Shown here piece after piece: positions 3,338 through 62,534 of a stretch of 64,000 nucleotides of DNA. Every line of letters starts with the position of its first letter. Position 1 is the stretch's first letter. The notes below the pieces were generated by a model, which saw only the letters and a list, made by a program, of their open reading frames with translations, was not told the origin of the DNA and made no database searches. This DNA comes from Candidatus Omnitrophota bacterium (lineage in GTDB: Bacteria; Omnitrophota; Gorgyraeia; Gygaellales; Profunditerraquicolaceae). Where the stretch lies: assembly GCA_041650795.1 (NCBI GenBank), contig JBAZKK010000002.1, positions 10,731 to 74,730 of the forward strand, written 5' to 3'. The position numbers and the translations under genes were made by a program.

Positions 3338-3853
3338 ATGCTTAACCGCGAAGAATTAGAAGGTTTAATAGTAAAAGACAAGCTCATCGAGGGGTATATG
3401 GACCTCAAGACGCAGCTTACCCCTAATGGCTTTGACCTTACCGCAGAGAAGATATTCGAATTTGACGAGGCAGGTGCATTGGACTTTTCTAATAAGGAGC
3501 GTCGTCTCCCCAAGGGCCGCGAGCTCATCCCCCAAAAATCCGCAACAGAAGATAAGTTCGGCTGGTGGGATTTGAAAAAAGGCATATACAAGGTAAGGAC
3601 TAACGAGGCGGTAAATATGCCCCGCGACCTGGCAGGCCTGGCTTTTACGCGTACCTCATTATTGAGGATGGGTGTTTTTACCCAGCACGGGGTCTGGGAT
3701 GCGGGGTTTCGCGGCAAGAGCGAATTTGTGTTAGTAATAGATAATCCTAAGGGAGCAAGGATTAAGCAAAACGCCAGGGTGGCGCAGATGGTTTTCTTGA
3801 GGATTAACGAGACGCAGGATGGCTACCAAGGCATCTACAACAACATAAAGTAG
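3338..3853 (+). CDS. dCTP deaminase / dUTPase-fold (Dcd-Dut family) protein
   Basis: LTPNGFDLT and GVWDAGFRGKSEFVLVIDN are trimeric dUTPase-fold motifs. The ORF-track start at 3179 overlaps nth, so the in-frame ATG at 3338 (MLNREELEG) was chosen. Confidence 0.7.
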   Translation: MLNREELEGLIVKDKLIEGYMDLKTQLTPNGFDLTAEKIFEFDEAGALDFSNKERRLPKGRELIPQKSATEDKFGWWDLKKGIYKVRTNEAVNMPRDLAGLAFTRTSLLRMGVFTQHGVWDAGFRGKSEFVLVIDNPKGARIKQNARVAQMVFLRINETQDGYQGIYNNIK

Positions 3854-3910
3854 GGACGGTTCTCAAGTGTGGTTAAAACTGTCCCCTAAAGGGACACATC
3901 TAACCGTACT
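3854..3910. repeat. Intergenic palindromic repeat family 1, copy A (degenerate right end)
   Basis: GGGACGGTTCTCAAG... begins directly after the stop codon. Internal hairpin TGTCCC-CTAAA-GGGACA (3880-3896). The right end TAACCGTAC is a decayed version of the inverted terminus. Confidence 0.75.
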
Positions 3911-3927
3911 TATCCTTAAAAGGGAAT

Positions 3928-4884
3928 ATGGTTATAAAGGATACGGAGATTAAGATTGTGCAGGGCGATATCACGGCACTAGAGGTTGATGCTATCGTCA
4001 ATGCCGCCAATAACAAGCTACTGATGGGTGGCGGGGTTGCCGGGGAGATTAAAAGAAGAGGCGGCAAGATCATTGAGGAAGAGGCAATAAACAAAGGCCC
4101 CATCAAGATAGGGGAAGCGGCGGTTACCTCTGCGGGAGCGCTCTCCGCCAGATACGTGATTCATGCCGCAACCATGGGCATGGATTTTAAAACCGACGAG
4201 ATAAAAATAAGAGATTCTGCCAGGAGCGCATTGAAGGCAGCCGAAGAGCTGAAAATAAATTCTATTGCCTTTCCGGCGCTCGGCTGCGGAGTGGGCGGGT
4301 TTCCTCTTTTGGCTTCAGCCAAGATTATGGCCCAGGAGGCACTCAGGCACTTACGCAGCGCAGACAGCAGCCTGCGGGAGATTATATTCTGCCTTTATGA
4401 TAAAGAGGCCTTTGATATTTTTGATAAAGGAGTAATCGGTTACCTGGATTACGTAACGCATAAGCTTGTAGCCGGACCTTTCCTTACCGTAGATGCCATC
4501 ATTGAGGTGGAGGAAACGGGCAAAGAGCCCGGCATTATCATCATCCAACGCAGTAATCCTCCTTTTGGCTGGGCCATCCCAGGCGGATTCGTGGATTACG
4601 GAGAAAGCCTGGAGGATGCCGTTAAAAGGGAAGCTAAGGAGGAAACCGGCATGGAGTTGACCGATATCCGTCAACTCCACACATATTCCGACCCCTCCCG
4701 CGACCCGCGTTTTCACACGGTCTGCACGGTATTTATTGCCAAAGGTAAAGGTAAGCCCAGGGCAGGAGACGACGCGGCGGGCCTGAAGGTGATTAAATTA
4801 AGCGAAATCAAAAAATTCAATTTCGCCTTTGACCACGGAGGAATCCTGAGGGACTATCTGAAAAAAAAGCAGCTCGCCGGTTAA
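3928..4884 (+). CDS. Macro domain (ADP-ribose binding/deacylase) fused to a NUDIX hydrolase
   Basis: N-terminal IVQGDITALEVDAIVNAANNKLLMGGGVAGEI and IAFPALGCGVGGFP are macro-domain motifs. The C-terminal half has a Nudix box GGFVDYGESLEDAVKREAKEETG. Confidence 0.8.
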   Translation: MVIKDTEIKIVQGDITALEVDAIVNAANNKLLMGGGVAGEIKRRGGKIIEEEAINKGPIKIGEAAVTSAGALSARYVIHAATMGMDFKTDEIKIRDSARSALKAAEELKINSIAFPALGCGVGGFPLLASAKIMAQEALRHLRSADSSLREIIFCLYDKEAFDIFDKGVIGYLDYVTHKLVAGPFLTVDAIIEVEETGKEPGIIIIQRSNPPFGWAIPGGFVDYGESLEDAVKREAKEETGMELTDIRQLHTYSDPSRDPRFHTVCTVFIAKGKGKPRAGDDAAGLKVIKLSEIKKFNFAFDHGGILRDYLKKKQLAG

Positions 4885-4918
4885 AGCAGCAATAATCTAT
4901 ATTAAATTATAATAGAAT

Positions 4919-4962
4919 CCTTACCGTATATTAGCAGACTACTGCGGTGGGGATTTTTTTAT
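4919..4962 (+). terminator. Possible intrinsic terminator after the Macro-NUDIX gene
   Basis: CCTTACCG (4919-4926) can pair with CGGTGGGG (4945-4952), including two G-U pairs, followed by ATTTTTTTATTATTTT. The loop is long (18 nt), so the call is weak. Confidence 0.35.
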
Positions 4963-5169
4963 TATTTTATGGAAAGAAAGCGTTTTCTAAAATATGCTTT
5001 ATAGCATTGAAGATGATAGCGTAACATATTATACTTGAAACAGATGCTGTATTTATAGCCTTTCTTTTATTAATATGTGAAAATAATAATATCACACTAA
5101 ACAATAAAATGCCGCGCCAACCCCAAATATTTTTATAAATATCAATAGAAAAAAGAGGGGATGCTTTGA

Positions 5170-7755
5170 ATGAATAGAGTTAATTTTATCATAGCGCTGT
5201 TGTTAGCATCGGCGGTGAGCAGTCCATTAACCGGCGTAGCCTTGGCCCACAGGAATTTTAATGGTATAGATTACGGCTATACCGAAATACGGATTCCTGC
5301 TATAGACAAACAAGAATGGAAAATGATAAAAAATTTAGATAAACCTGCTGTTTCAGTTTCTACAATTGATATCGAGCCTTTTCTTAAAATATTATTGAAC
5401 TCCGCAGCCAAACCCGAAGAGCGTATTGAGGCGGCTGATGCTTTGGCTGCGGCGGTTACAGATTCCAGCAGCACCATGACAGATGAGACTAAAGGCGAGA
5501 TTGTTGGAGCCTTAGTTCAGGTTTTAGGAAGCTCGACTGAGGCTGAAGTCCGCATAGGAGCGGCTAATGCCTTAGGCAAGATAGGAGATCCTATCACTAG
5601 TAAGGCATTAAGGTATTGGAGTAAAAATGCCGCTGATGATGGCATTAAGGCTGCTGCTGCGGATGCCCTTAAGAATATAAGCGGCGCTGATATCATGACT
5701 AGCGAAGAGGCGTTTCAAATATTATTGAACTCCGGAGCCGAACCCGATGAACGCGTTAATTCAGCTAATACTTTGGCTGGATTGGCTAAGTCAGGCACCC
5801 AAGATGATAAGAACGAGATTGTTGGAGCCTTAGTCCAGGTTTTAGGGAGCTCGACTGAGGCTGAAGTCCGCATAGGAGCGGCTAGCGCCTTAGGAGCGAT
5901 AGGGGATTCAAGCGCTATTGAGGCTTTAACGTATTGGAGCGCACATGCCGGTGATAAAGGCATACGGGATGCTTCAAGCGCAGCCCTTGAATTAATAAAG
6001 GGCAGTAGCGTTACAGGAGCCTCTAGCGTTTCGGAGGATGACGCTGGCGAAATACAAGCCCCGCTTGGAACTGTCGGCATAGAGAACGACGCTTTTGCCG
6101 GCGCTACCGGATTTTTCAGCGCTAACAAGTTTGATGATAATCCAATGGCCGGTAATGTTCAGGACACCTGTTCCATTGAATCCCGTGTCCCCTACAATGA
6201 TAAGATTCTTAGTGATCCCAGAGCCGGAACTGATCCGATTATTGAAAGCATGGGTCTTTTTATCCTCAATAATAGTAATGAGGATTTAACAGCCTCTGCC
6301 ATCCAGGATAAGCCTCAAGAGGATGTTGTTGATTCGTCCGGTCTTAATGGAGAGGAGTTAAATGCCCCTGAAGGTTTAAATGATGCCAAAATCGCAAACC
6401 ACGATCTAACTGCTGAACTCGGCTCAGGCAGTGAAGTTTCTTCGTTTTCTGGGCAACCACAGGTATTTTATGTTAATACCCTCCTTCCGGATAGTTATAA
6501 AACACTCCAGACTACTCTAAAGGTAGATGAGGCAGGAAAGGGTTGGTTTCCGGATAACCTAAGATCCCGTCCTATTCCAGATGATAGCGCTCCGAGCGAT
6601 ATTAAAGGCAAGGCGACGATACCTCTGGAGAAAAACCGGCAACTCCTTAACTATCTTAATGTTGACGGTAAGGGTAATAGCAGGTATGAAAAGACCGGGA
6701 TTTCTACCTGGTGCAATATATTTGTTTGGGATTATACCAGCATGCGTGGTTATGAGGTTCCGCATTGGCTCAATGGGGGGGAGTTGTCAGCTAATGGGGT
6801 TAGCGAATGGTTGCAGAATGCCGGAGATTATGGCTGGGAGGAGGTTTCCCCTGAAAAGGCTCAAAACCTGTCAAATGAAGGATATGTAGTAGTAGCAGCT
6901 CAGCGCAATGCAGGAGGCACCGGCCATGTCGCAATAGTCATACCGGAAGAGTTAGCTCAAGAGGGGATAGAGGCAGGCATAGGTAAGGATGGCAAATTTT
7001 ACCCTATTATAGCTCAGGCAGGTCAAAAGAATTTCGTCGGTAGGCGAGCCGATGACCCGAATGCCTTTTCTGCCGATGGGGCAAAGATAAGTTATTATGT
7101 AAATAGACTTCCAGGAGGATATGAATTGGAACCCCCAACTCCGCTATATTTTGCAGGTGAGGATAATTATCATGAGCTGACGCATGAAAATGCGACTGTG
7201 GAGCCTAGGCTGATCGTGCTTCATAGCGACCTTGGTAACGGTACGACCGAGAATACCTACAATGGCTTATCGGCTATTGTTATGGACCGCCCCACAGCGG
7301 TTTATAATAGCAATGGTGAGCTAATAGGGGATAAGGAAGTGGATCGTAGTAGTAATGTGCATTTTGCAGTCGGCAGGGATGGAACGGTATGGCAACTTCT
7401 GCCTATGTATGAAGATTCGGTAAACGTATCTTACGGGGTGTTCGGTTATCGTGATGCTATAAGTATTGAGATGGGGGGAACGCTAGAACAGTTTAAAGGC
7501 GACAATATTTCCGAAGAACAATTAAATGCTACACTGGACCTTGTTATTAACATAATGGTTCAATATAATATTAAATATGACAATGTGTTGGGGCATTATG
7601 AGTGTGACACTGCTACTTATGCGAACGGCGATACCTGGGACCGGGGAAAGTCTGACCCCGGAGTTGAGTTTATGCAGGTATTCCGGGTCCGCCTGGCGCA
7701 GGAGCTTAATGCGCGGCATCTTGATTTTGGCCAACCGGCTGATCTTATGTTATAA
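5170..7755 (+). CDS. Exported multidomain cell-wall hydrolase: signal peptide, two HEAT-like repeat modules, CHAP/NlpC-P60-like Cys-His domain, Amidase_2 (N-acetylmuramoyl-L-alanine amidase) domain
   Basis: Signal peptide MNRVNFIIALLLASAVSSPLTGVALA. HEAT-like EVRIGAANALGKIGD occurs twice. STWCNIFVWDY (Cys515) and GTGHVAIVIPE (His586) form a candidate Cys-His pair. Amidase_2 motifs are IVLHSD, HFAVGRDG, ISIEMGG and LGHYECD...KSDPG. Confidence 0.75.
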   Translation: MNRVNFIIALLLASAVSSPLTGVALAHRNFNGIDYGYTEIRIPAIDKQEWKMIKNLDKPAVSVSTIDIEPFLKILLNSAAKPEERIEAADALAAAVTDSSSTMTDETKGEIVGALVQVLGSSTEAEVRIGAANALGKIGDPITSKALRYWSKNAADDGIKAAAADALKNISGADIMTSEEAFQILLNSGAEPDERVNSANTLAGLAKSGTQDDKNEIVGALVQVLGSSTEAEVRIGAASALGAIGDSSAIEALTYWSAHAGDKGIRDASSAALELIKGSSVTGASSVSEDDAGEIQAPLGTVGIENDAFAGATGFFSANKFDDNPMAGNVQDTCSIESRVPYNDKILSDPRAGTDPIIESMGLFILNNSNEDLTASAIQDKPQEDVVDSSGLNGEELNAPEGLNDAKIANHDLTAELGSGSEVSSFSGQPQVFYVNTLLPDSYKTLQTTLKVDEAGKGWFPDNLRSRPIPDDSAPSDIKGKATIPLEKNRQLLNYLNVDGKGNSRYEKTGISTWCNIFVWDYTSMRGYEVPHWLNGGELSANGVSEWLQNAGDYGWEEVSPEKAQNLSNEGYVVVAAQRNAGGTGHVAIVIPEELAQEGIEAGIGKDGKFYPIIAQAGQKNFVGRRADDPNAFSADGAKISYYVNRLPGGYELEPPTPLYFAGEDNYHELTHENATVEPRLIVLHSDLGNGTTENTYNGLSAIVMDRPTAVYNSNGELIGDKEVDRSSNVHFAVGRDGTVWQLLPMYEDSVNVSYGVFGYRDAISIEMGGTLEQFKGDNISEEQLNATLDLVINIMVQYNIKYDNVLGHYECDTATYANGDTWDRGKSDPGVEFMQVFRVRLAQELNARHLDFGQPADLML

Positions 7756-7802
7756 AGTAGCTTTTTCTAAATATGTATTAGGTATATCAGATAGAATATC
7801 AG

Positions 7803-9680
7803 CTAACCTTCCCTCAGCTGTTTTTCCGCATCCACGATATCCCTGTTAATCACGCGCACCGTTTCTTTAATCCTTTCCTTTAAGAGATAGGAGGCTACCT
7901 GGGCGTCATAGATTTCCCTGAGCACCTGCACGCTCATGCGGAAATAACGGATTATCTCGCCTTCATCGGTATCTGTGTATTGCAGGACCTTGTCAAAGCG
8001 CGTACCCCGGAGCCACGCTTCCATACAAGCGCTTAAATGGAAATAAGGCCTTTTGCTGATGGGGTAAATCCGGTATTTGCGTTCTTTTTCTTTTATCTCT
8101 TCGTATAATTCATCGCAGGCATTCTTCAAGTGGCGGCTGTTCTTGGAGATGTTGGATAGGCGCTGGTTCTTGCGCGGCTCAAAGACAACCGCGGCAGCGA
8201 GGGTGCCGAGCCCAAATTCATCAACCTGCTCCAGGATATTGCGGCTGTAAAGCTCGCTCAATAGCAGCTCGTATCCGTAGACATTCTTGGCAAACTGCCC
8301 TTTATCGGTAAGGGCCCCGTTTTCAATATAACCTAATTCCGTCAAAAGATTCAGTTTTGCCTGCATCAGCCTCAAGGCCTCCTTCTGCTCGTATTTTTTA
8401 GACTGAAAGTAATGCAAGGAGGAGGGGTAGATGTCGAATATACCCTCTTTGTGTTTTTCGTAGAGGTTGAGCAGCGTGGCATAAGAGGTGTTCAGCTGGC
8501 TGCGCACTTCCTCAGGAGGACTGTAGATAACCCATTTTACCTCGTCAAATTTGATGCGGAGAGGATTTATGCGGCAGTAAACAAAACCTTCCTTATCCAT
8601 CCCGCGCCTGCCGGCGCGTCCCGCCATCTGGTAGAAATCCCTGGTTTTAAGGGGACGCACAAAACGGCCGTAGTATTTGCGCAGGTCGTCGAAGATAACC
8701 GAACGGCTCGGCATGTTTATCCCCAAGGCAAAGGTCTCGGTAGTGAATATGACCCGGAGCAGGCGGCTGGTAAAAAGCCTTTCGATTACCTCCTTAAGGG
8801 TAGGCAGCATCCCGGCGTGATGGTAGGCAACCCCTTTTTGCACCAAAGGCCGCATCTGGTTGGCGGACTTCTCGTGGGATAGCTCAAAGCGCCTGCAGAG
8901 GTCGTCGTAATATTTCAGTATTTTTTCTTTCTCTGCCGCGTCGAGGAAGTCGTAGTTATAGGCCTCCGAGGCGAGGTCTTCGGCCCGGCGCCTTCCAAAG
9001 ACAAAGTATATGCAAGGTAGCCCGTTTTTCTGCTGCACGTATTTAATCAGGGTCGCGAGCTTGTTGGGGTAGCCGTATTTTATTCTTTTGAGCTCCGTGA
9101 TGTTGTTCAATATTTCGTTGCGGCACTGATAGAGAAAATGCAGCGGCACCGGCCTTTTTTCTTCCGTCACGGTTTTGACTGGCCTGTTATGTATGCTTTC
9201 AATCCATGATGCGAATTCCCTGATGTTCGGGATGGTGGCGGAGAGGGCCAGTATATTCATATGCCTTGGTAAGAATATCAGCGATTCCTCCCAGACAGTG
9301 CCGCGTTCGGGATTATCGATGTAATGCACCTCATCGAAGATAATCCATTCGTAACCGGAGAGGCTTTCAGGTTCATCAAGGACCTTATTGCGGAATATCT
9401 CGGTGGTCATAATCAAGACTGGAGCATAGGGGTTTAAGGAAACATCCCCGGTTAATATCCCGATATTGTCGCCGTATTCTGCCTGGAAGTCTCGGAATTT
9501 CTGATTGGAAAGGGCTTTGATAGGCGCGGTGTAAATTACGCCGGATTGTTTTTTGATGCAGGTAGTTATGACGTGTTCGGCAATGGCGGTTTTGCCGGCT
9601 CCTGTCGGCGCAGAAACGATTACCGAGAACCCGTCGTTAATATAATCAATGGCTTCCTGCTGGAATCGGTCGTAAATCAT
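7803..9680 (-). CDS. Ski2/HelY-like DExH-box (superfamily 2) helicase with DSHCT-like C-terminal domain
   Basis: Motif I APTGAGKT, motif II DEVHY, motif III SAT, AYHHAGMLP and motif VI QMAGRAGRRG. C-terminal EAWLRGTRFDKVLQYTDTDEGEIIRYFRM resembles DSHCT. This is the only convincing minus-strand gene in the window. Confidence 0.85.
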   Translation of the reverse strand: MIYDRFQQEAIDYINDGFSVIVSAPTGAGKTAIAEHVITTCIKKQSGVIYTAPIKALSNQKFRDFQAEYGDNIGILTGDVSLNPYAPVLIMTTEIFRNKVLDEPESLSGYEWIIFDEVHYIDNPERGTVWEESLIFLPRHMNILALSATIPNIREFASWIESIHNRPVKTVTEEKRPVPLHFLYQCRNEILNNITELKRIKYGYPNKLATLIKYVQQKNGLPCIYFVFGRRRAEDLASEAYNYDFLDAAEKEKILKYYDDLCRRFELSHEKSANQMRPLVQKGVAYHHAGMLPTLKEVIERLFTSRLLRVIFTTETFALGINMPSRSVIFDDLRKYYGRFVRPLKTRDFYQMAGRAGRRGMDKEGFVYCRINPLRIKFDEVKWVIYSPPEEVRSQLNTSYATLLNLYEKHKEGIFDIYPSSLHYFQSKKYEQKEALRLMQAKLNLLTELGYIENGALTDKGQFAKNVYGYELLLSELYSRNILEQVDEFGLGTLAAAVVFEPRKNQRLSNISKNSRHLKNACDELYEEIKEKERKYRIYPISKRPYFHLSACMEAWLRGTRFDKVLQYTDTDEGEIIRYFRMSVQVLREIYDAQVASYLLKERIKETVRVINRDIVDAEKQLREG

Positions 9681-9685
9681 ACTTA

Positions 9686-9778
9686 GGGACGGTTCTGAAC
9701 TTAAAGCTGGATTGTCCCCTAAGAAGGGGATATCTGCCTGCCGGCAGGCAGATATTTGTTTTTGAGGTTAGAACTGCC
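9686..9778. repeat. Intergenic palindromic repeat family 1, copy B (carries an extra 26-bp perfect palindrome)
   Basis: Left end GGGACGGTTCTGAAC (9686-9700), hairpin TCCCC-TAAGAA-GGGGA, perfect palindrome ATATCTGCCTGCCGGCAGGCAGATAT (9730-9755), and degenerate inverted right end GGTTAGAACTGCC (9766-9778). Confidence 0.8.
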
Positions 9779-9782
9779 ATTT

Positions 9783-9811
9783 ATTATAAGCTAAATTTGT
9801 TGATTTATCTA
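9783..9811 (-). promoter_or_regulatory. Putative sigma70-type promoter for the helicase gene
   Basis: On the minus strand, -35 TAGATA (complement of 9806-9811), a 17-nt spacer and -10 TATAAT (complement of 9783-9788). The predicted start falls at the edge of repeat copy B. Confidence 0.45.
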
Positions 9812-9828
9812 TCTAAAAATACTACAAT
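9800..9828 (+). promoter_or_regulatory. Putative sigma70-type promoter for the DUF3786-like gene and SNase gene
   Basis: -35 TTGATT (9800-9805), 17-nt spacer, -10 TACAAT (9823-9828). ATG codons lie at 9830 and 9836, which implies a leaderless or near-leaderless mRNA. Confidence 0.5.
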
Positions 9829-9829
9829 A

Positions 9830-10387
9830 ATGGAAATGGGCTATGGGCTAGCCTTAAGCAAGGCTTGGAATGAACTTAAGAAAACCGGTCTTTCTCAGGG
9901 GAGTGTCGTTAGGTTCCTTGCGGACGAGTACGCTTTGGATTTGGAGTCGCAGAGGGTTATGTCTTTATCTTGCAATGCGCCGGCCAAGGATTTTACGGCA
10001 ATCCTGATTTTACATTACCTGACAGCCGTTTCCCGTGGCCTGCCGTACCTGGAGCGCCATTGGGTTTCATTCAGGGAATTGGCGGGGATAGAGGGGTATT
10101 CTGCGGCTTTCCGTAAGCGCGCTATCGAGCCGATACTGCGTAAATACGGCAATAACGCCGAAGGGCTGTTGGGCGCGTTAAAGAGGTTGCCTGGCCAGAG
10201 GGCTCCTGAGGCTGATGTAGGCATTGTCCTGGAGGTATTTAACGGGGTGCCGGCGATGATTTTGCTCTGGCGTTCCGATGAAGAGTTCGCTGCCGAGGCA
10301 GCCATGCTTTTTGACGCCAGCATCAAGCATATCTTTTGCACCGAGGATATCGCGGTCCTGGCAGGGGTTATCGCCAGCGCACTGTAG
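9830..10387 (+). CDS. DUF3786-like protein of unknown function
   Basis: ALSKAWNEL, FLADEYALDLESQRVMSLSCNAPAKDFTAILILHYL, LWRSDEEF and LFDASIKHIFCTEDI match my recollection of DUF3786 proteins. The start could be ATG 9830 or 9836; the ORF-track TTG at 9797 lies inside the promoter. Confidence 0.55.
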   Translation: MEMGYGLALSKAWNELKKTGLSQGSVVRFLADEYALDLESQRVMSLSCNAPAKDFTAILILHYLTAVSRGLPYLERHWVSFRELAGIEGYSAAFRKRAIEPILRKYGNNAEGLLGALKRLPGQRAPEADVGIVLEVFNGVPAMILLWRSDEEFAAEAAMLFDASIKHIFCTEDIAVLAGVIASAL

Positions 10388-10396
10388 AAAAGGAGG

Positions 10397-10966
10397 ATGG
10401 GTGTGAAAAGGGCGAGCGTTATCATTTCCGTTATTATGTTGCTGTTGGCAGTTGCTCTGATTTTTGCAGCCGATGAGCCATTTAAGATTTATACCAGCGG
10501 CGACGGTAAATTCAGCATCCCTTTCGGTAAAACCTATAATTATTCTGATATCTATGTTAGGAGGGTTATTGACGGAGATACTATCCAACTGGAAAACGGG
10601 GAGCGGCTGCGGCTCATCGGTATTGACACCCCGGAGATGCACGAATCAGACAAGCTCTACCGCGACAGCGAGCGGAGCGGCCAGGATATTAAGGTGATTA
10701 TAAAGATGGGGCAGCGCTCCTATGAGTTTACCAGGAAGCTGGTGGAGGGCAAGCGCGTCAGCCTTGAGTTTGACGCCGAAAAATACGATAAATACAACAG
10801 GCTCCTGGCCTACGTTTATTTAAAGGACGGTACCTTTGTCAATGCCGAGATTGTCAAAGGAGGATACGCCTCGCTCATGACTATTCCGCCCAATGTAAGG
10901 TATGCGGATTTATTTTCCAAACTCTACCGCGAGGCCCGCGAGAACAAACGCGGCCTCTGGCGGTAG
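10397..10966 (+). CDS. Membrane-anchored or secreted thermonuclease (staphylococcal nuclease, SNase) homologue
   Basis: N-terminal hydrophobic segment VIISVIMLLLAVALIFAA. SNase motifs VIDGDTIQLENGERLRLIGIDTPE and NRLLAYVYL..GTFVNAEIVKGGYA. AAGGAGG ribosome-binding site upstream. Confidence 0.8.
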   Translation: MGVKRASVIISVIMLLLAVALIFAADEPFKIYTSGDGKFSIPFGKTYNYSDIYVRRVIDGDTIQLENGERLRLIGIDTPEMHESDKLYRDSERSGQDIKVIIKMGQRSYEFTRKLVEGKRVSLEFDAEKYDKYNRLLAYVYLKDGTFVNAEIVKGGYASLMTIPPNVRYADLFSKLYREARENKRGLWR

Positions 10967-10976
10967 TCAGCCAAGA

Positions 10977-11051
10977 GGGACGGTTCTGAACTCAAAGCTA
11001 ACCTGTCCCCGCATTGAGGGGGCAGGTTTAGTCCAACCCGAGAACCGTCCC
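10977..11051. repeat. Intergenic palindromic repeat family 1, copy C (most intact)
   Basis: Perfect 11-bp terminal inverted repeats GGGACGGTTCT (10977-10987) and AGAACCGTCCC (11041-11051), with internal hairpin AACCTGTCCCC-GCATTGA-GGGGGCAGGTT. Confidence 0.85.
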
Positions 11052-12410: not shown

Positions 12411-12450
12411 GACAAGCCCCGCCTTAAAAGCGGGGCTTAAAATAACTCCG
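12402..12450. other. Nested stem-loop between spoVG and aroK
   Basis: Inner stem AAGCCCCGC (12414-12422) pairs with GCGGGGCTT (12430-12438). Outer stem CGGAGTTA (12402-12409) pairs with TAACTCCG (12443-12450). No downstream U tract on the + strand. Confidence 0.5.
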
Positions 12451-30110: not shown

Positions 30111-30530
30111 ATGCCGGAATCCGGAGTAGGCCTTAAAAAAGAAAAGATGCTGCATGATAGGATGCGCGAGCTTGGGGTGAGGGAAGAGGATATTGTCGAA
30201 AAATTCAGCCGTTCCCAAGGGCCGGGTGGGCAGAACGTTAATAAGACCTCTACTTCCGTGTGGCTTAAGCATGTCCCTACCGGTATACAGGTAAAGTGCC
30301 AGCAGGAACGTTCCCAGGCGCTCAACCGTTATATAGGGCGCAGGACCCTTTTGAATAAGATTGAAAATATGATATTAGGGAGATTTTCCGAAGAGAGGAG
30401 GCGCATCGAGAAGATCCGCAGGCAGAAGCGCCGGCGTTCCCGCAGGGCGAAGATAAAAATCCTGGAGGCCAAGCGCCGCCAGGCAGAAAAGAAGGTCTTT
30501 CGGCAGAAGGTGCTAGGCCCTGATTATTAG
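30111..30530 (+). CDS. arfB: GGQ-domain peptidyl-tRNA hydrolase, ArfB/ICT1-like ribosome rescue factor
   Basis: SQGPGGQNVNKTSTSV GGQ motif, about 139 aa, with a strongly basic C-terminal tail RRRIEKIRRQKRRRSRRAKIK. Confidence 0.7.
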   Translation: MPESGVGLKKEKMLHDRMRELGVREEDIVEKFSRSQGPGGQNVNKTSTSVWLKHVPTGIQVKCQQERSQALNRYIGRRTLLNKIENMILGRFSEERRRIEKIRRQKRRRSRRAKIKILEAKRRQAEKKVFRQKVLGPDY

Positions 30531-30586
30531 AAACACTTTCCCGTTCAGGTTGGAAGGTGTTTCCCGATTGCCTCGGAAAGTGTTTC
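30530..30586. repeat. Repeat family 2 element: three copies of a 12-nt arm able to form alternative hairpins
   Basis: GAAACACTTTCC (30530-30541), GGAAGGTGTTTC (30552-30563) and GGAAAGTGTTTC (30575-30586). The first arm is complementary to both later arms. A U-rich TGTTT follows. Confidence 0.7.
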
Positions 30587-30607
30587 TGTTTAGGGAGGTT
30601 AAAAAGG

Positions 30608-62465: not shown

Positions 62466-62494
62466 CCATAACCAGAAACGTTTTCCTAGCCAAA

Positions 62495-62534
62495 GCTAAA
62501 ACACTTTCCAGCACAATCGGGAAAGTGTTTTAGC
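62495..62534. repeat. Repeat family 2 element: perfect 15-bp-stem hairpin, possibly a terminator
   Basis: GCTAAAACACTTTCC (62495-62509) pairs with GGAAAGTGTTTTAGC (62520-62534) around a 10-nt loop. A degenerate third arm GAAACGTTTTCC lies at 62475-62486. It shares the core AAACACTTTCC with the element at 30530. Confidence 0.7.

What the first reader, a model, noticed from the sequence alone, without database searches (positions are those of the whole stretch)
3854..11051. Family of palindromic intergenic repeats (GGGACGGTTCT...AGAACCGTCCC) confined to the first 11 kb
Three copies are present: 3854-3910, 9686-9778 and 10977-11051.
- All three start with GGGACGGTTCT(C/G)AA in the same orientation.
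- Copy C ends with the perfect inverted terminus AGAACCGTCCC. Copies A and B have decayed versions (TAACCGTAC; GGTTAGAACTGCC).
- Each has an internal GTCCCC...GGGGAC-type hairpin.

They look like REP/MITE-like elements with terminal inverted repeats and variable cores of 57-93 bp. The ends abut gene boundaries tightly. Copy A starts at the stop codon of the dut/dcd-like gene. The AGAACCGTCCCTAA end of copy B sits 5 nt from the helicase ATG. The end of copy C leads into the aroC ribosome-binding site. I saw no further copies in the other intergenic spacers, so the three copies delimit exactly the accessory-looking gene set.
Basis: seen in the sequence. Interest (0 to 1): 0.6.

Follow-up and report, generated by a model that had tools for sequence, protein, structure and literature searches.

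The report
REP-like palindromic repeats in an Omnitrophota genome
The three repeats are real copies, one intact and two decayed, of a short hairpin-forming mobile-type repeat common in this bacterial lineage. Their end motif flanks a special tyrosine transposase gene in other phyla, and they do not mark an accessory gene island.

Summary
GGGACGGTTCT (motif M) occurs exactly four times in the 64 kb, at 3853, 9686 and 10977 (+) and 11041 (-), against about 0.03 expected. The window is a Candidatus Omnitrophota MAG contig.

- **Copies.** Copy C (10977-11051) is an intact 75-nt hairpin. A has lost part of one arm. B has decayed ends and a nested terminator-like palindrome.
- **Family.** The same 71-75-nt element is common in Omnitrophota-lineage genomes: 24 exact M in 307 kb, against 0 in 455 kb of distant controls.
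- **Not an island.** A sister species has full copies at all three orthologous sites. The genes between the repeats are syntenic in about 17 relatives, so they are core.
- **Turnover.** Elements come and go at intergenic sites, occur as half-elements, and are flipped between the two sister species.
- **Transposase link.** In Firmicutes, M and its complement flank genes for RAYT-like Y1 (HUH) transposases with a C-terminal HTH (TIRYT, subclass 2.1). This held in 8 of 9 gene loci examined.

Best reading: REPIN/MITE-like derivatives of such a "TIRtron", mobilised in trans. No cognate transposase was found in Omnitrophota data, so that step is inferred. A second, related palindromic family sits at 30530-30586 and 62475-62531. 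Verdict: a new member of a known kind.

The parts
3853..3909 (.). Copy A. Decayed element between dcd (stop TAG 3851-3853) and the Macro-NUDIX gene (ATG 3928). The left arm is intact: GGGACGGTTCT, a 16-nt spacer, then TGTCCCC. The right arm is GGGACA followed by a truncated end, CTAACCGTAC. About 16 nt have been deleted relative to the orthologous full copy, L121 4833-4905.
9686..9778 (.). Copy B. It lies in the divergent spacer between the helicase (minus strand, ATG 9680) and DUF3786. The left terminus is intact. The right terminus has decayed to AGAACTGCC. It is orthologous to the full 73-nt copy at L121 8625-8697.
9730..9755 (+). Perfect palindrome ATATCTGCCTGCCGGCAGGCAGATAT, nested in the right arm of copy B and absent from the orthologous L121 copy. 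It is followed by a T-rich tail and scores as terminator-like on the + strand.
10977..11051 (.). Copy C. Intact 75-nt element between SNase (stop 10964-10966) and aroC (ATG 11069). Its parts are:
- an 11-bp perfect outer stem, GGGACGGTTCT/AGAACCGTCCC
- an asymmetric internal loop, GAACTCA on one arm and CCAACCCG on the other
- an inner stem, TAACCTGTCCCC/GGGGGCAGGTTTA
- a 7-nt loop
30530..30586 (.). Sister family 'X', with a different core: GAACACTTTCC-type units, GAAACACTTTCC / GGAAGGTGTTTC / GGAAAGTGTTTC. It starts on the G of the upstream gene's stop codon. It shares the linker motif CCGATTGsCTC with the GGGACGGTTCT family.
   Evidence: (D8, I1)
62475..62531 (.). Second copy of sister family 'X': GAAACGTTTTCC-TAGCCAAAGCT-AAAACACTTTCC-AGCACAATCG-GGAAAGTGTTTT. 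A third copy lies about 7 kb beyond the window end, at L216 17401-17462.

Best explanation
The three sequences belong to a lineage-wide family of non-autonomous, REPIN/MITE-like palindromic elements.

**Anatomy (shown).**
- The intact form is 71-75 nt.
- Its termini are invariant: (Y)A-GGGACGGTTCT-(C)AA and the complement.
- Between them are an internal loop whose two sides differ, and an inner GTCCCC/GGGGAC stem with a short loop.
- In many copies each half is itself a small hairpin: GGGACGGTTCT, 11 nt, AGAACTGTCCC.

**Link to a transposase (shown in other phyla).** The terminal motif matches the inverted repeat that brackets genes for RAYT-like Y1 (HUH) transposases with a C-terminal HTH domain. 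These are the TIRYT of Di Nocera 2013, subclass 2.1 of Quentin 2018. The motif lies upstream on the coding strand and its complement lies downstream.

**Mechanism (inferred).** A transposase of this kind, encoded elsewhere in the Omnitrophota genome, recognises the motif on single-stranded hairpin DNA. It cuts and rejoins the element into intergenic sites, often at or just after a stop codon and frequently next to TA.

**Fate of inserted copies (shown).**
- They lie between co-oriented genes, so they are presumably co-transcribed (inferred).
- They persist through speciation.
- They flip, lose an arm, or acquire nested insertions.

In the window, C is intact and A and B are relics. They do not bound a mobile island.
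For: **1. The family is real and specific to the lineage.**
- There are 24 exact GGGACGGTTCT in 307 kb of loci whose aroC is 63-88% identical to the window's. There are 0 in 455 kb of loci at 53% or less.
- The covariance model finds about 17 distinct elements in the first set and 1 weak hit in the second.
- 17 of the 119 genome loci returned by the pattern scan are Omnitrophota MAGs. Several of these, and a few Planctomycetes-labelled loci, carry full 71-75-nt palindromes.
- The window itself is an Omnitrophota MAG contig.

**2. It forms a hairpin.**
- Fold z-scores are -5 to -10.
- The inner helix has compensatory changes in 7 of 9 pairs. 96.7% of cells are paired, against 38-58% when partners are slid by 1-3 columns.

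**3. It turns over as mobile DNA does inside a conserved syntenic block.**
- Site C is filled in the window and L121, holds only a half-element in L155/L156, and is empty in L122, L123 and L124.
- Site B is full, half or empty in different relatives.
- The spoVG|aroK site is filled in six relatives and empty here.

**4. It flips.** At all three sites the window copy aligns better to the reverse complement of the L121 copy. Scores are 20.5 against 11, 22.5 against 13, and 51 against 32.5.

**5. The motif is tied to a transposase.**
- The gene bracketed by the motif in Sporomusa acidovorans (L035 70-909) is Y1_Tnp. It passes NCBIfam NF047646, REP-associated tyrosine transposase (84.1 against a cut-off of 80). 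Its best PDB match is 4ER8, TnpArep.
- Clostridium thermopalmarium L044 4479-5429 is Y1_Tnp plus a DnaA_C-like HTH, and lies between M and its complement.
- Seven loci were fetched through the protein alone, with no use of the motif. Six have GGGAC[GA]GT[TC]C upstream and its complement 9-160 nt downstream: L209, L212, L213, L222, L223 and L224. The seventh, L214, has a GGGACA variant.

**6. The literature describes this kind of unit.** TIRYT genes are flanked by TIRs sharing GGGGWSAS, with moderately abundant dispersed TIR families arranged as dimers or clusters (PMC3733652; PMC6006769). GGGGACGG fits 7 of 8 positions. The inner GGGGACA[CG] fits 8 of 8.
Against: **No cognate transposase was found in Omnitrophota.**
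- None is in the window, in 20 kb of extra flank, or in any of about 55 held Omnitrophota-lineage loci (HMM scans).
- Three protein searches returned only Firmicutes- or Planctomycetes-named homologues among the best 120 hits each.
- The trans-mobilisation step is therefore inference by motif identity.

**Other points against or limiting the claim.**
- The 5' GTAG/CGTC tag of classical REPs is absent.
- The cross-phylum set was partly ascertained with the exact motif, so the invariance of the outer stem is partly by construction.
- No clean target-site duplication could be shown.
- Only three copies are seen in 84 kb, and two of them are decaying. Activity in this genome may be extinct.
Confidence: 0.62

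Rival explanations
1. They are MITEs derived from a conventional DDE insertion sequence of the IS630/Tc1-mariner type, which duplicates a TA target. That transposase would mobilise them by cut-and-paste of double-stranded DNA.
For: - They have terminal inverted repeats of 11-15 bp, a MITE-like size, and variable interiors that include short AT-rich forms.
- TA directly flanks the GGGAC end in 33 of 64 termini, and A is at -1 in 53 of 64.
- Filled and empty sites are compatible with insertion at a TA.
Against: - No DDE transposase bounded by the motif was seen in any locus.
- Every transposase gene found bracketed by the motif is Y1/HUH.
- TA is its own complement, so it cannot be told apart from an extension of the inverted repeat.
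- Half of the termini lack it.
Confidence: 0.1
2. They are host-selected RNA hairpins. These would be mRNA 3'-end protectors, processing sites or translation modulators inside operons, kept for that function, with mobility irrelevant. This reading is not exclusive of the main explanation.
For: - The hairpins are very stable (-43 to -46 kcal/mol for B and C) and sit in spacers between co-oriented genes.
- They typically lie 0-15 nt after the upstream stop codon.
- They are retained at three orthologous sites in the sister species.
- The length is conserved at 71-75 nt.
Against: - Orientation relative to transcription is not conserved. All three flip between sister species, and model scores are mixed.
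- One copy lies in a divergent promoter region between a putative -10 box and a start codon.
- Copies decay: A is truncated and B is mutated.
- The M hairpins have no U-tract, so they are not intrinsic terminators.
- There is no Rfam match.
- An invariant sequence in the outer stem, rather than covariation there, points to protein recognition of sequence.
Confidence: 0.15
3. They are binding sites for a host DNA-binding protein, such as a nucleoid, gyrase or IHF-type factor or a regulator. The palindrome would then be an operator-like dyad.
For: - The 11-bp sequence is invariant and arranged as inverted dyads.
- E. coli REP/BIME are known to bind gyrase, IHF and Pol I (established knowledge).
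Against: - The flanking genes share no function.
- The sites are gained and lost freely between relatives.
- Nothing links the motif to a regulator gene, whereas it is linked repeatedly to a transposase gene.
Confidence: 0.06
4. They are integron attC-like recombination sites separating gene cassettes.
For: - They are imperfect palindromes of 57-93 nt at gene boundaries.
- They have two stems and an unpaired central region, superficially like the R-box, spacer and L-box of an attC site.
Against: - There is no RYYYAAC/GTTRRRY core site.
- The 'cassettes' are conserved core genes, one of them on the opposite strand.
- The only tyrosine recombinase nearby is a housekeeping-context XerC-like gene after topA.
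Confidence: 0.02

Closest known systems
TIRtron / TIRYT-associated TIR repeat families (Di Nocera et al. 2013, PMC3733652), corresponding to subclass 2.1 TnpA-Y1 with a C-terminal HTH (Quentin et al. 2018, PMC6006769)
   Same: - A G-rich GGGGWSAS-type inverted repeat brackets a RAYT-like Y1 transposase gene.
- The same repeat is dispersed in intergenic DNA as dimers and clusters.
- The transposases found here have Y1_Tnp plus a Bac_DnaA_C- or Sigma70_r4-like HTH.
   Different: - The repeat core here is a longer motif, GGGACGGTTCT(N)AA. It recurs exactly in loci labelled Omnitrophota, Planctomycetes, Bacillota, Bacteroidota and Chloroflexota.
- In Omnitrophota it forms a regular 71-75-nt doublet.
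- Quentin et al. reported finding no REP-like sequences near subclass 2.1 genes.
- The cognate gene has not been seen in Omnitrophota.
REP / REPIN / BIME with RAYT (E. coli, Pseudomonas, Stenotrophomonas)
   Same: - Short intergenic palindromes, with inverted doublets that fold into one long hairpin (REPIN).
- Singlets occur as relics.
- They are mosaics with shared linkers and more than one unit type. Here the types are the GGGAC family and the GAAACACTTTCC family.
- They are associated with a single-copy HUH Y1 transposase bracketed by the same repeat.
   Different: - There is no 5' GTAG or CGTC tag.
- Classical REP sequences are specific to a species or genus, whereas this core is shared across phyla.
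- The transposase belongs to a different subclass with an extra HTH domain.
Bacterial MITEs with TA duplication (Correia/CREE, RUP, Nezha; mobilised by IS630-type elements)
   Same: Size of 50-160 nt, terminal inverted repeats, frequent flanking TA, intergenic location, and co-transcription with neighbouring genes.
   Different: No parent DDE insertion sequence was found. The only genes bracketed by the motif encode HUH Y1 enzymes.
Integron attC sites
   Same: An imperfect palindrome at gene boundaries with asymmetric unpaired bases. Recombination would act on a folded single strand.
   Different: No R'/R'' core sites, no integrase, and no cassette organisation.

Membership tests
REP/REPIN (RAYT-mobilised) | Short imperfect palindromic units, multi-copy, in intergenic DNA | tested here: met
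   There are 3 copies in the window and about 17 in 307 kb of related loci, at the gene junctions mapped. Motif pairs in the genome-scan loci are almost all intergenic, whereas 65 single chance hits lie inside ORFs.
REP/REPIN (RAYT-mobilised) | Inverted doublets that fold into a single hairpin, with singlets as remnants | tested here: met
   The 71-75-nt doublets fold with z-scores of -4 to -10. Half-elements occur at L155/L156 site C and at L144/L150 site B.
REP/REPIN (RAYT-mobilised) | Conserved unpaired 5' tetranucleotide tag (GTAG or CGTC) | tested here: not met
   In 64 termini, only -1 (A 53, G 11) and -2 (T 33, C 17) are biased. GTAG occurs only sporadically. A CGTC-like tag (ACGTCG-GGGAC) is seen only in some Firmicute or viral copies.
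REP/REPIN (RAYT-mobilised) | A cognate Y1 transposase gene in the same genome, bracketed by the same repeat | tested here: inconclusive
   Met in Firmicute genomes in 8 of 9 gene loci. None was found in the window, its flanks or the held Omnitrophota loci.
TIRtron TIR family (TIRYT) | Inverted repeat containing GGGGWSAS | tested here: inconclusive
   The terminal GGGGACGG or AGGGACGG fits 6-7 of 8 positions. The inner GGGGACA[CG] fits 8 of 8.
TIRtron TIR family (TIRYT) | The repeat flanks a RAYT-like gene that has a C-terminal HTH extension | tested here: met
   Met for the motif as such in other phyla. L035 has a Sigma70_r4-like tail, and L044 and L224 have Bac_DnaA_C. Not shown for Omnitrophota.
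MITE of a DDE insertion sequence | A parent IS with the same termini that encodes a DDE transposase, plus a target-site duplication | tested here: not met
   No such gene lies next to the motif in more than 200 loci. TA flanks are present in about half of termini but cannot be distinguished from an extension of the repeat.
Integron attC | R''/R' core sites RYYYAAC ... GTTRRRY and an integron integrase or cassette array | tested here: not met
   The core sites are absent from the sequences. The genes are core and syntenic.
Intrinsic terminator | GC-rich stem directly followed by a U-tract | tested here: not met
   The scan flags none of the three GGGAC hairpins. It flags only the nested palindrome inside B, at 9728-9757.
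Any Rfam RNA family | A score at or above the gathering threshold | tested here: not met
   There is no hit in the window. Only generic miRNA-hairpin hits below threshold appear on related loci.

The most novel reading that the evidence does not exclude
One short DNA word, GGGACGGTTCT, is the conserved substrate of the large and functionally uncharacterised HTH-bearing Y1 transposase subclass (TIRYT / 2.1) across at least five bacterial phyla.

- In Firmicutes it is presented in the loop of genome-specific stems (W-n4-M-n3-W').
- In Omnitrophota it is presented as the base of a regular 73-nt doublet that flips in place.

On this reading these enzymes seed REPIN-like families far outside Proteobacteria. 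The Omnitrophota elements would be maintained by a still unseen, possibly domesticated, member of the subclass.
Probability: 0.4. Interest if true: 0.55.

Novelty: new member of a known kind. Interest (0 to 1): 0.4.

Why it matters
**For annotation.** These hairpins explain most of the long spacers in a very compact genome. They should not be read as island boundaries, terminators or RNA genes.

**For mobile-DNA biology.** Subclass 2.1 Y1 transposases are present in about 15% of strains in Quentin et al. 2018, and no REP-like substrate has been reported for them. An exact 11-mer brackets these genes and also builds dispersed hairpin repeats in several phyla. That gives a concrete, testable substrate for binding and cleavage assays.

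**As a timing marker.** Three elements inverted in place between two sister Omnitrophota species show how fast such palindromes rearrange relative to speciation.

Tried and rejected
- **Known RNA family.** Rfam at gathering threshold found nothing in the window. An E-value scan of 5 related loci and a scan of the Bacillaceae loci found nothing relevant.
- **tRNA-like element.** None was found, despite the 73-nt length.
- **Plasmid or phage origin.** blastn of copy C against plasmids and phages gave only chance 19-mers or nothing.
- **Literature by raw sequence.** The hits were primer strings only.
- **attC sites.** Rejected because the core sites are absent.
- **Tn3-type miniature elements.** Rejected on inspection of the flanks: there is no 5-bp duplication and no inner TAAG in the arms.
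- **rRNA or RNase P fragments.** I compared the motif with conserved 16S, 23S and RNase P segments from memory. Only 6-9-nt coincidences turned up, so I dropped the idea.
- **Finding an Omnitrophota RAYT.** Three attempts were made:
  - a profile of two Firmicute proteins
  - the R. baltica TIRYT taken from the Di Nocera supplement
  - P0035

  The named hits were only Firmicutes or Planctomycetes. HMM scans of every held locus were negative. The ORF next to the motif in L106 is not a transposase.
- **Large insertions at site B in relatives** (L144, L138). The proteins have no Pfam match and there is no transposase.
- **Tandem repeats.** None was found in the window.
Full report
**1. The observation**

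The 11-mer GGGACGGTTCT (motif M below) occurs exactly at 3853, 9686 and 10977 on the + strand and at 11041 on the - strand, and nowhere else in the 64 kb. About 0.03 exact matches are expected. Near-matches are at chance level (13 against 14 in shuffles).

- The three left arms form one repeat family (D6; alignment).
- Copy C (10977-11051) is a perfect-ended 75-nt hairpin. As RNA it folds at -46 kcal/mol with z -6.0. As DNA it folds at -22 kcal/mol with z -4.5.
- Copy B folds as RNA with z -5.3. Copy A is weaker, z -2.6.
- The gene-boundary statements are right. A begins on the G of the dcd stop codon. B ends 5 nt from the helicase ATG. C ends just before the aroC ribosome-binding site.
- The only correction is that A starts at 3853, not 3854.

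**2. Source and neighbours**

The window's proteins are exact matches to a Candidatus Omnitrophota MAG contig of 76 kb. The gene order is:

- CCA-adding enzyme, HhH-GPD glycosylase, dcd, [A]
- Macro-NUDIX, HEAT-repeat amidase, DEAD/DSHCT helicase (minus strand), [B]
- DUF3786, SNase, [C]
- aroC, spoVG, aroK, dprA, topA

56 of about 59 genes are on the + strand, and spacers are few.

**3. The family in related genomes**

A pattern scan of one genome per species returned 119 loci.

- 17 are Omnitrophota MAGs and several more are labelled Planctomycetes.
- Several of these loci hold full palindromes of 68-75 nt of the form AGGGACGGTTCTCAA..TGTCCCC-loop-GGGGACA..TTGAGAACCGTCCCT.

Fetching aroC relatives from metagenomes gave a natural control:

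| Loci | aroC identity | Length | Exact M | Covariance-model hits |
|---|---|---|---|---|
| L121-L158 | 63-88% | 307 kb | 24 | about 17 distinct elements |
| L159-L200 | 53% or less | 455 kb | 0 | 1 weak hit |

In 19 full elements the outer 12-bp helix is sequence-invariant. This is partly by ascertainment. The inner helix keeps pairing through compensatory changes in 7 of 9 pairs.

**4. Not an island boundary**

tblastn shows MacroNudix, helicase(-), DUF3786, SNase, aroC, spoVG, aroK and dprA in the same order in about 17 relatives. The genes between the repeats are therefore core. Only the slot holding the HEAT-amidase gene varies. In the sister species L121 that slot holds an unrelated 202-aa ORF.

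L121 (aroC 88% identical) has full 73-74-nt elements at all three orthologous junctions. This shows two things:
- window copy A has lost about 16 nt of one arm
- window copy B has mutated ends and has acquired a nested perfect palindrome (9730-9755) that looks like a + strand terminator

**5. Turnover**

Within this conserved block the elements come and go.

| Site | Filled | Half-element | Empty |
|---|---|---|---|
| C (SNase\|aroC) | window, L121 | L155/L156 (right half only) | L122 (81% aroC), L123, L124 |
| B (helicase\|DUF3786) | window, L121 | L144, L150 | six relatives |
| spoVG\|aroK | six relatives | none seen | window |

- Where site B is empty, a TATAAT lies 6 nt before the helicase ATG.
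- Short forms with an AT-rich interior sit between the convergent Macro and helicase genes in L125 and L131.
- The flanks are compatible with insertion at TA. TA flanks 33 of 64 termini. TA is self-complementary, and no clean duplication could be shown.

**6. Flipping**

The elements are not perfectly symmetric. One arm carries GAACTCAAAGC. The other carries (T/C)CACCyyr opposite it, which gives a 7 x 7 internal loop.

At all three sites the window copy matches the reverse complement of the L121 copy better than the forward sequence:

| Site | Score, reverse complement | Score, forward |
|---|---|---|
| A | 20.5 | 11 |
| B | 22.5 | 13 |
| C | 51 | 32.5 |

At site C the identities are 65 of 76 (reverse complement) and 58 of 78 (forward). 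The flanking genes are collinear, so the elements themselves inverted or were replaced in situ. This argues against a function tied to one transcribed strand.

**7. What the motif belongs to**

M also occurs, in inverted or tandem pairs, in loci labelled Bacillota, Bacteroidota and Chloroflexota and in Firmicute-type viral contigs. One viral contig has six elements in 6.1 kb. In these loci M is usually embedded between short genome-specific inverted words, for example GCAAGTG-GGGACGGTTCT-TGCTTGC.

The decisive clue came from the genes bracketed by M.
- Sporomusa acidovorans L035 70-909 is Y1_Tnp. It passes NCBIfam 'REP-associated tyrosine transposase', and its best PDB match is E. coli TnpArep, 4ER8.
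- Clostridium thermopalmarium L044 4479-5429 is Y1_Tnp plus a DnaA_C-like HTH.
- The family is very large, with at least 7,800 hits.

I then fetched seven members through the protein alone.
- Six have GGGAC[GA]GT[TC]C upstream on the coding strand and the complement 9-160 nt after the stop.
- The seventh has a GGGACA variant.

This is the 'TIRtron' of Di Nocera et al. 2013: a RAYT-like TIRYT gene flanked by inverted repeats sharing GGGGWSAS, with dispersed repeat families in some genomes. Quentin et al. 2018 equate TIRYT with their HTH-bearing subclass 2.1.

**8. Mechanism**

- *Shown:* the anatomy, the lineage-wide distribution, the turnover, the flipping, and the repeated association of the motif with Y1/HUH transposase genes in other phyla.
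- *Inferred:* that a transposase of this subclass, encoded elsewhere in the Omnitrophota genome, mobilises the elements as single-stranded hairpins, as IS200/IS605 and RAYT enzymes do.

I could not find such a gene in any Omnitrophota sequence available to me. Two of the three window copies are decaying, so activity may be past.

A secondary RNA-level effect is plausible but untested. Candidates are stable hairpins 0-15 nt after stop codons, or the hairpin between the helicase promoter and its ATG.

**9. Rivals**

- *DDE-type MITE with TA duplication:* no parent element was found.
- *Purely functional RNA hairpin:* orientation is not conserved, copies decay, there is no U-tract and there is no Rfam match.
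- *Protein operator:* the flanking genes share no regulon.
- *attC:* the core sites are absent.

**10. Second family**

The covariance model also hit 30527-30589. This and 62475-62531, plus a third copy 7 kb beyond the window end, form a sister family.
- It is built on GAAACACTTTCC/GGAAAGTGTTTC.
- It shares linker motifs with the GGGAC family (CCGATTGsCTC, GCTTTGGGTTG).
- This gives a BIME-like mosaic of two unit types.

The statement that other spacers hold no repeats is therefore true only for the first family.

**11. Verdict**

- The repeat family is real, is correctly recognised as REP/MITE-like, and is wrongly read as delimiting an accessory region.
- It is a new member of a known kind: REPIN-like repeats tied to Y1 transposases.
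- The useful extra is that its 11-nt terminus is shared across phyla and gives a candidate substrate for the poorly understood TIRYT subclass.

Noticed in passing
window 30530-30586 and 62475-62531; L216 17401-17462: A second palindromic intergenic repeat family with core GAAACACTTTCC / GGAAAGTGTTTC. It shares linker motifs with the GGGACGGTTCT family. One copy starts on the G of a TAG stop codon, as copy A does.
   Followed up: partly
window 9730-9755: A perfect 26-nt palindrome, ATATCTGCCTGCCGGCAGGCAGATAT, is nested inside copy B. It is absent from the orthologous L121 copy and scores as a + strand terminator-like site. This is a repeat inserted into a repeat.
   Followed up: partly
window 9779-9840 and the orthologous spacers in L123, L125, L126, L139, L142, L155: The helicase|DUF3786 spacer has conserved back-to-back promoter-like boxes (TTGATT-17-TAcAAT on +, TAGATA-17-TATAAT on -). 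In relatives without the repeat the -10 boxes lie 5-7 nt from the start codons, which suggests leaderless mRNAs. Copy B separates the helicase ATG from its box by about 100 nt.
   Followed up: partly
window 5170-7755: An 861-aa protein with HEAT repeats and an Amidase_2 domain. It has internal 318-330-nt DNA repeats (5384-6003) and lower GC (0.43-0.47). It is the only non-syntenic gene of the region and is replaced by an unrelated 202-aa ORF without Pfam hits in the sister species L121.
   Followed up: partly
L057, L089, L097, L102 (Omnitrophota MAG JBAYES01) and L042: Here the GGGACGGTTCT terminus is followed by arrays of 2-5 units of about 22 nt, each ending in CYACACCYGTCCC. L089 6585-6755 is a 170-nt element with one unit on one arm and five on the other. 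Similar short tandem GGGAC units lie next to the transposase genes in L209, L212 and L214.
   Followed up: no
L015 7671, L112 5212, L107 7221 (Mesobacillus, Syntrophomonas): The 11-mer continues into a conserved stretch of about 36 nt, GGGACGGTTCTTAAAGCGGACAATCGGAAGTTTTGC. An imperfect inverted partner lies about 100 nt away, enclosing a terminator-like hairpin. There is no Rfam match. This may be another element type built on the same terminus.
   Followed up: partly
L204 (IMG/VR contig, 6.1 kb): Six GGAAC-GGGACGGTTCT-GTTCC hairpin elements separate almost every gene of a phage-like region (DUF2612, NlpC/P60 endolysin, SH3 proteins). That is about one element per kilobase.
   Followed up: no
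L144 4680-8850 and L138 6838-8772: In two relatives the helicase|DUF3786 spacer, which is the site of copy B, holds 2-4 kb insertions encoding proteins without Pfam hits. In L144 a full 73-nt element (5485-5557) lies inside the reading frame of a 1213-aa ORF.
   Followed up: partly
window 12414-12438: A small GC-rich hairpin, AAGCCCCGCCTTAAAAGCGGGGCTT, lies directly after spoVG. This is the junction where relatives carry a GGGACGGTTCT element.
   Followed up: no
whole window: 56 of about 59 genes are on the + strand, and cumulative GC skew rises monotonically. The window therefore lies within one replichore, with genes co-oriented with replication.
   Followed up: no
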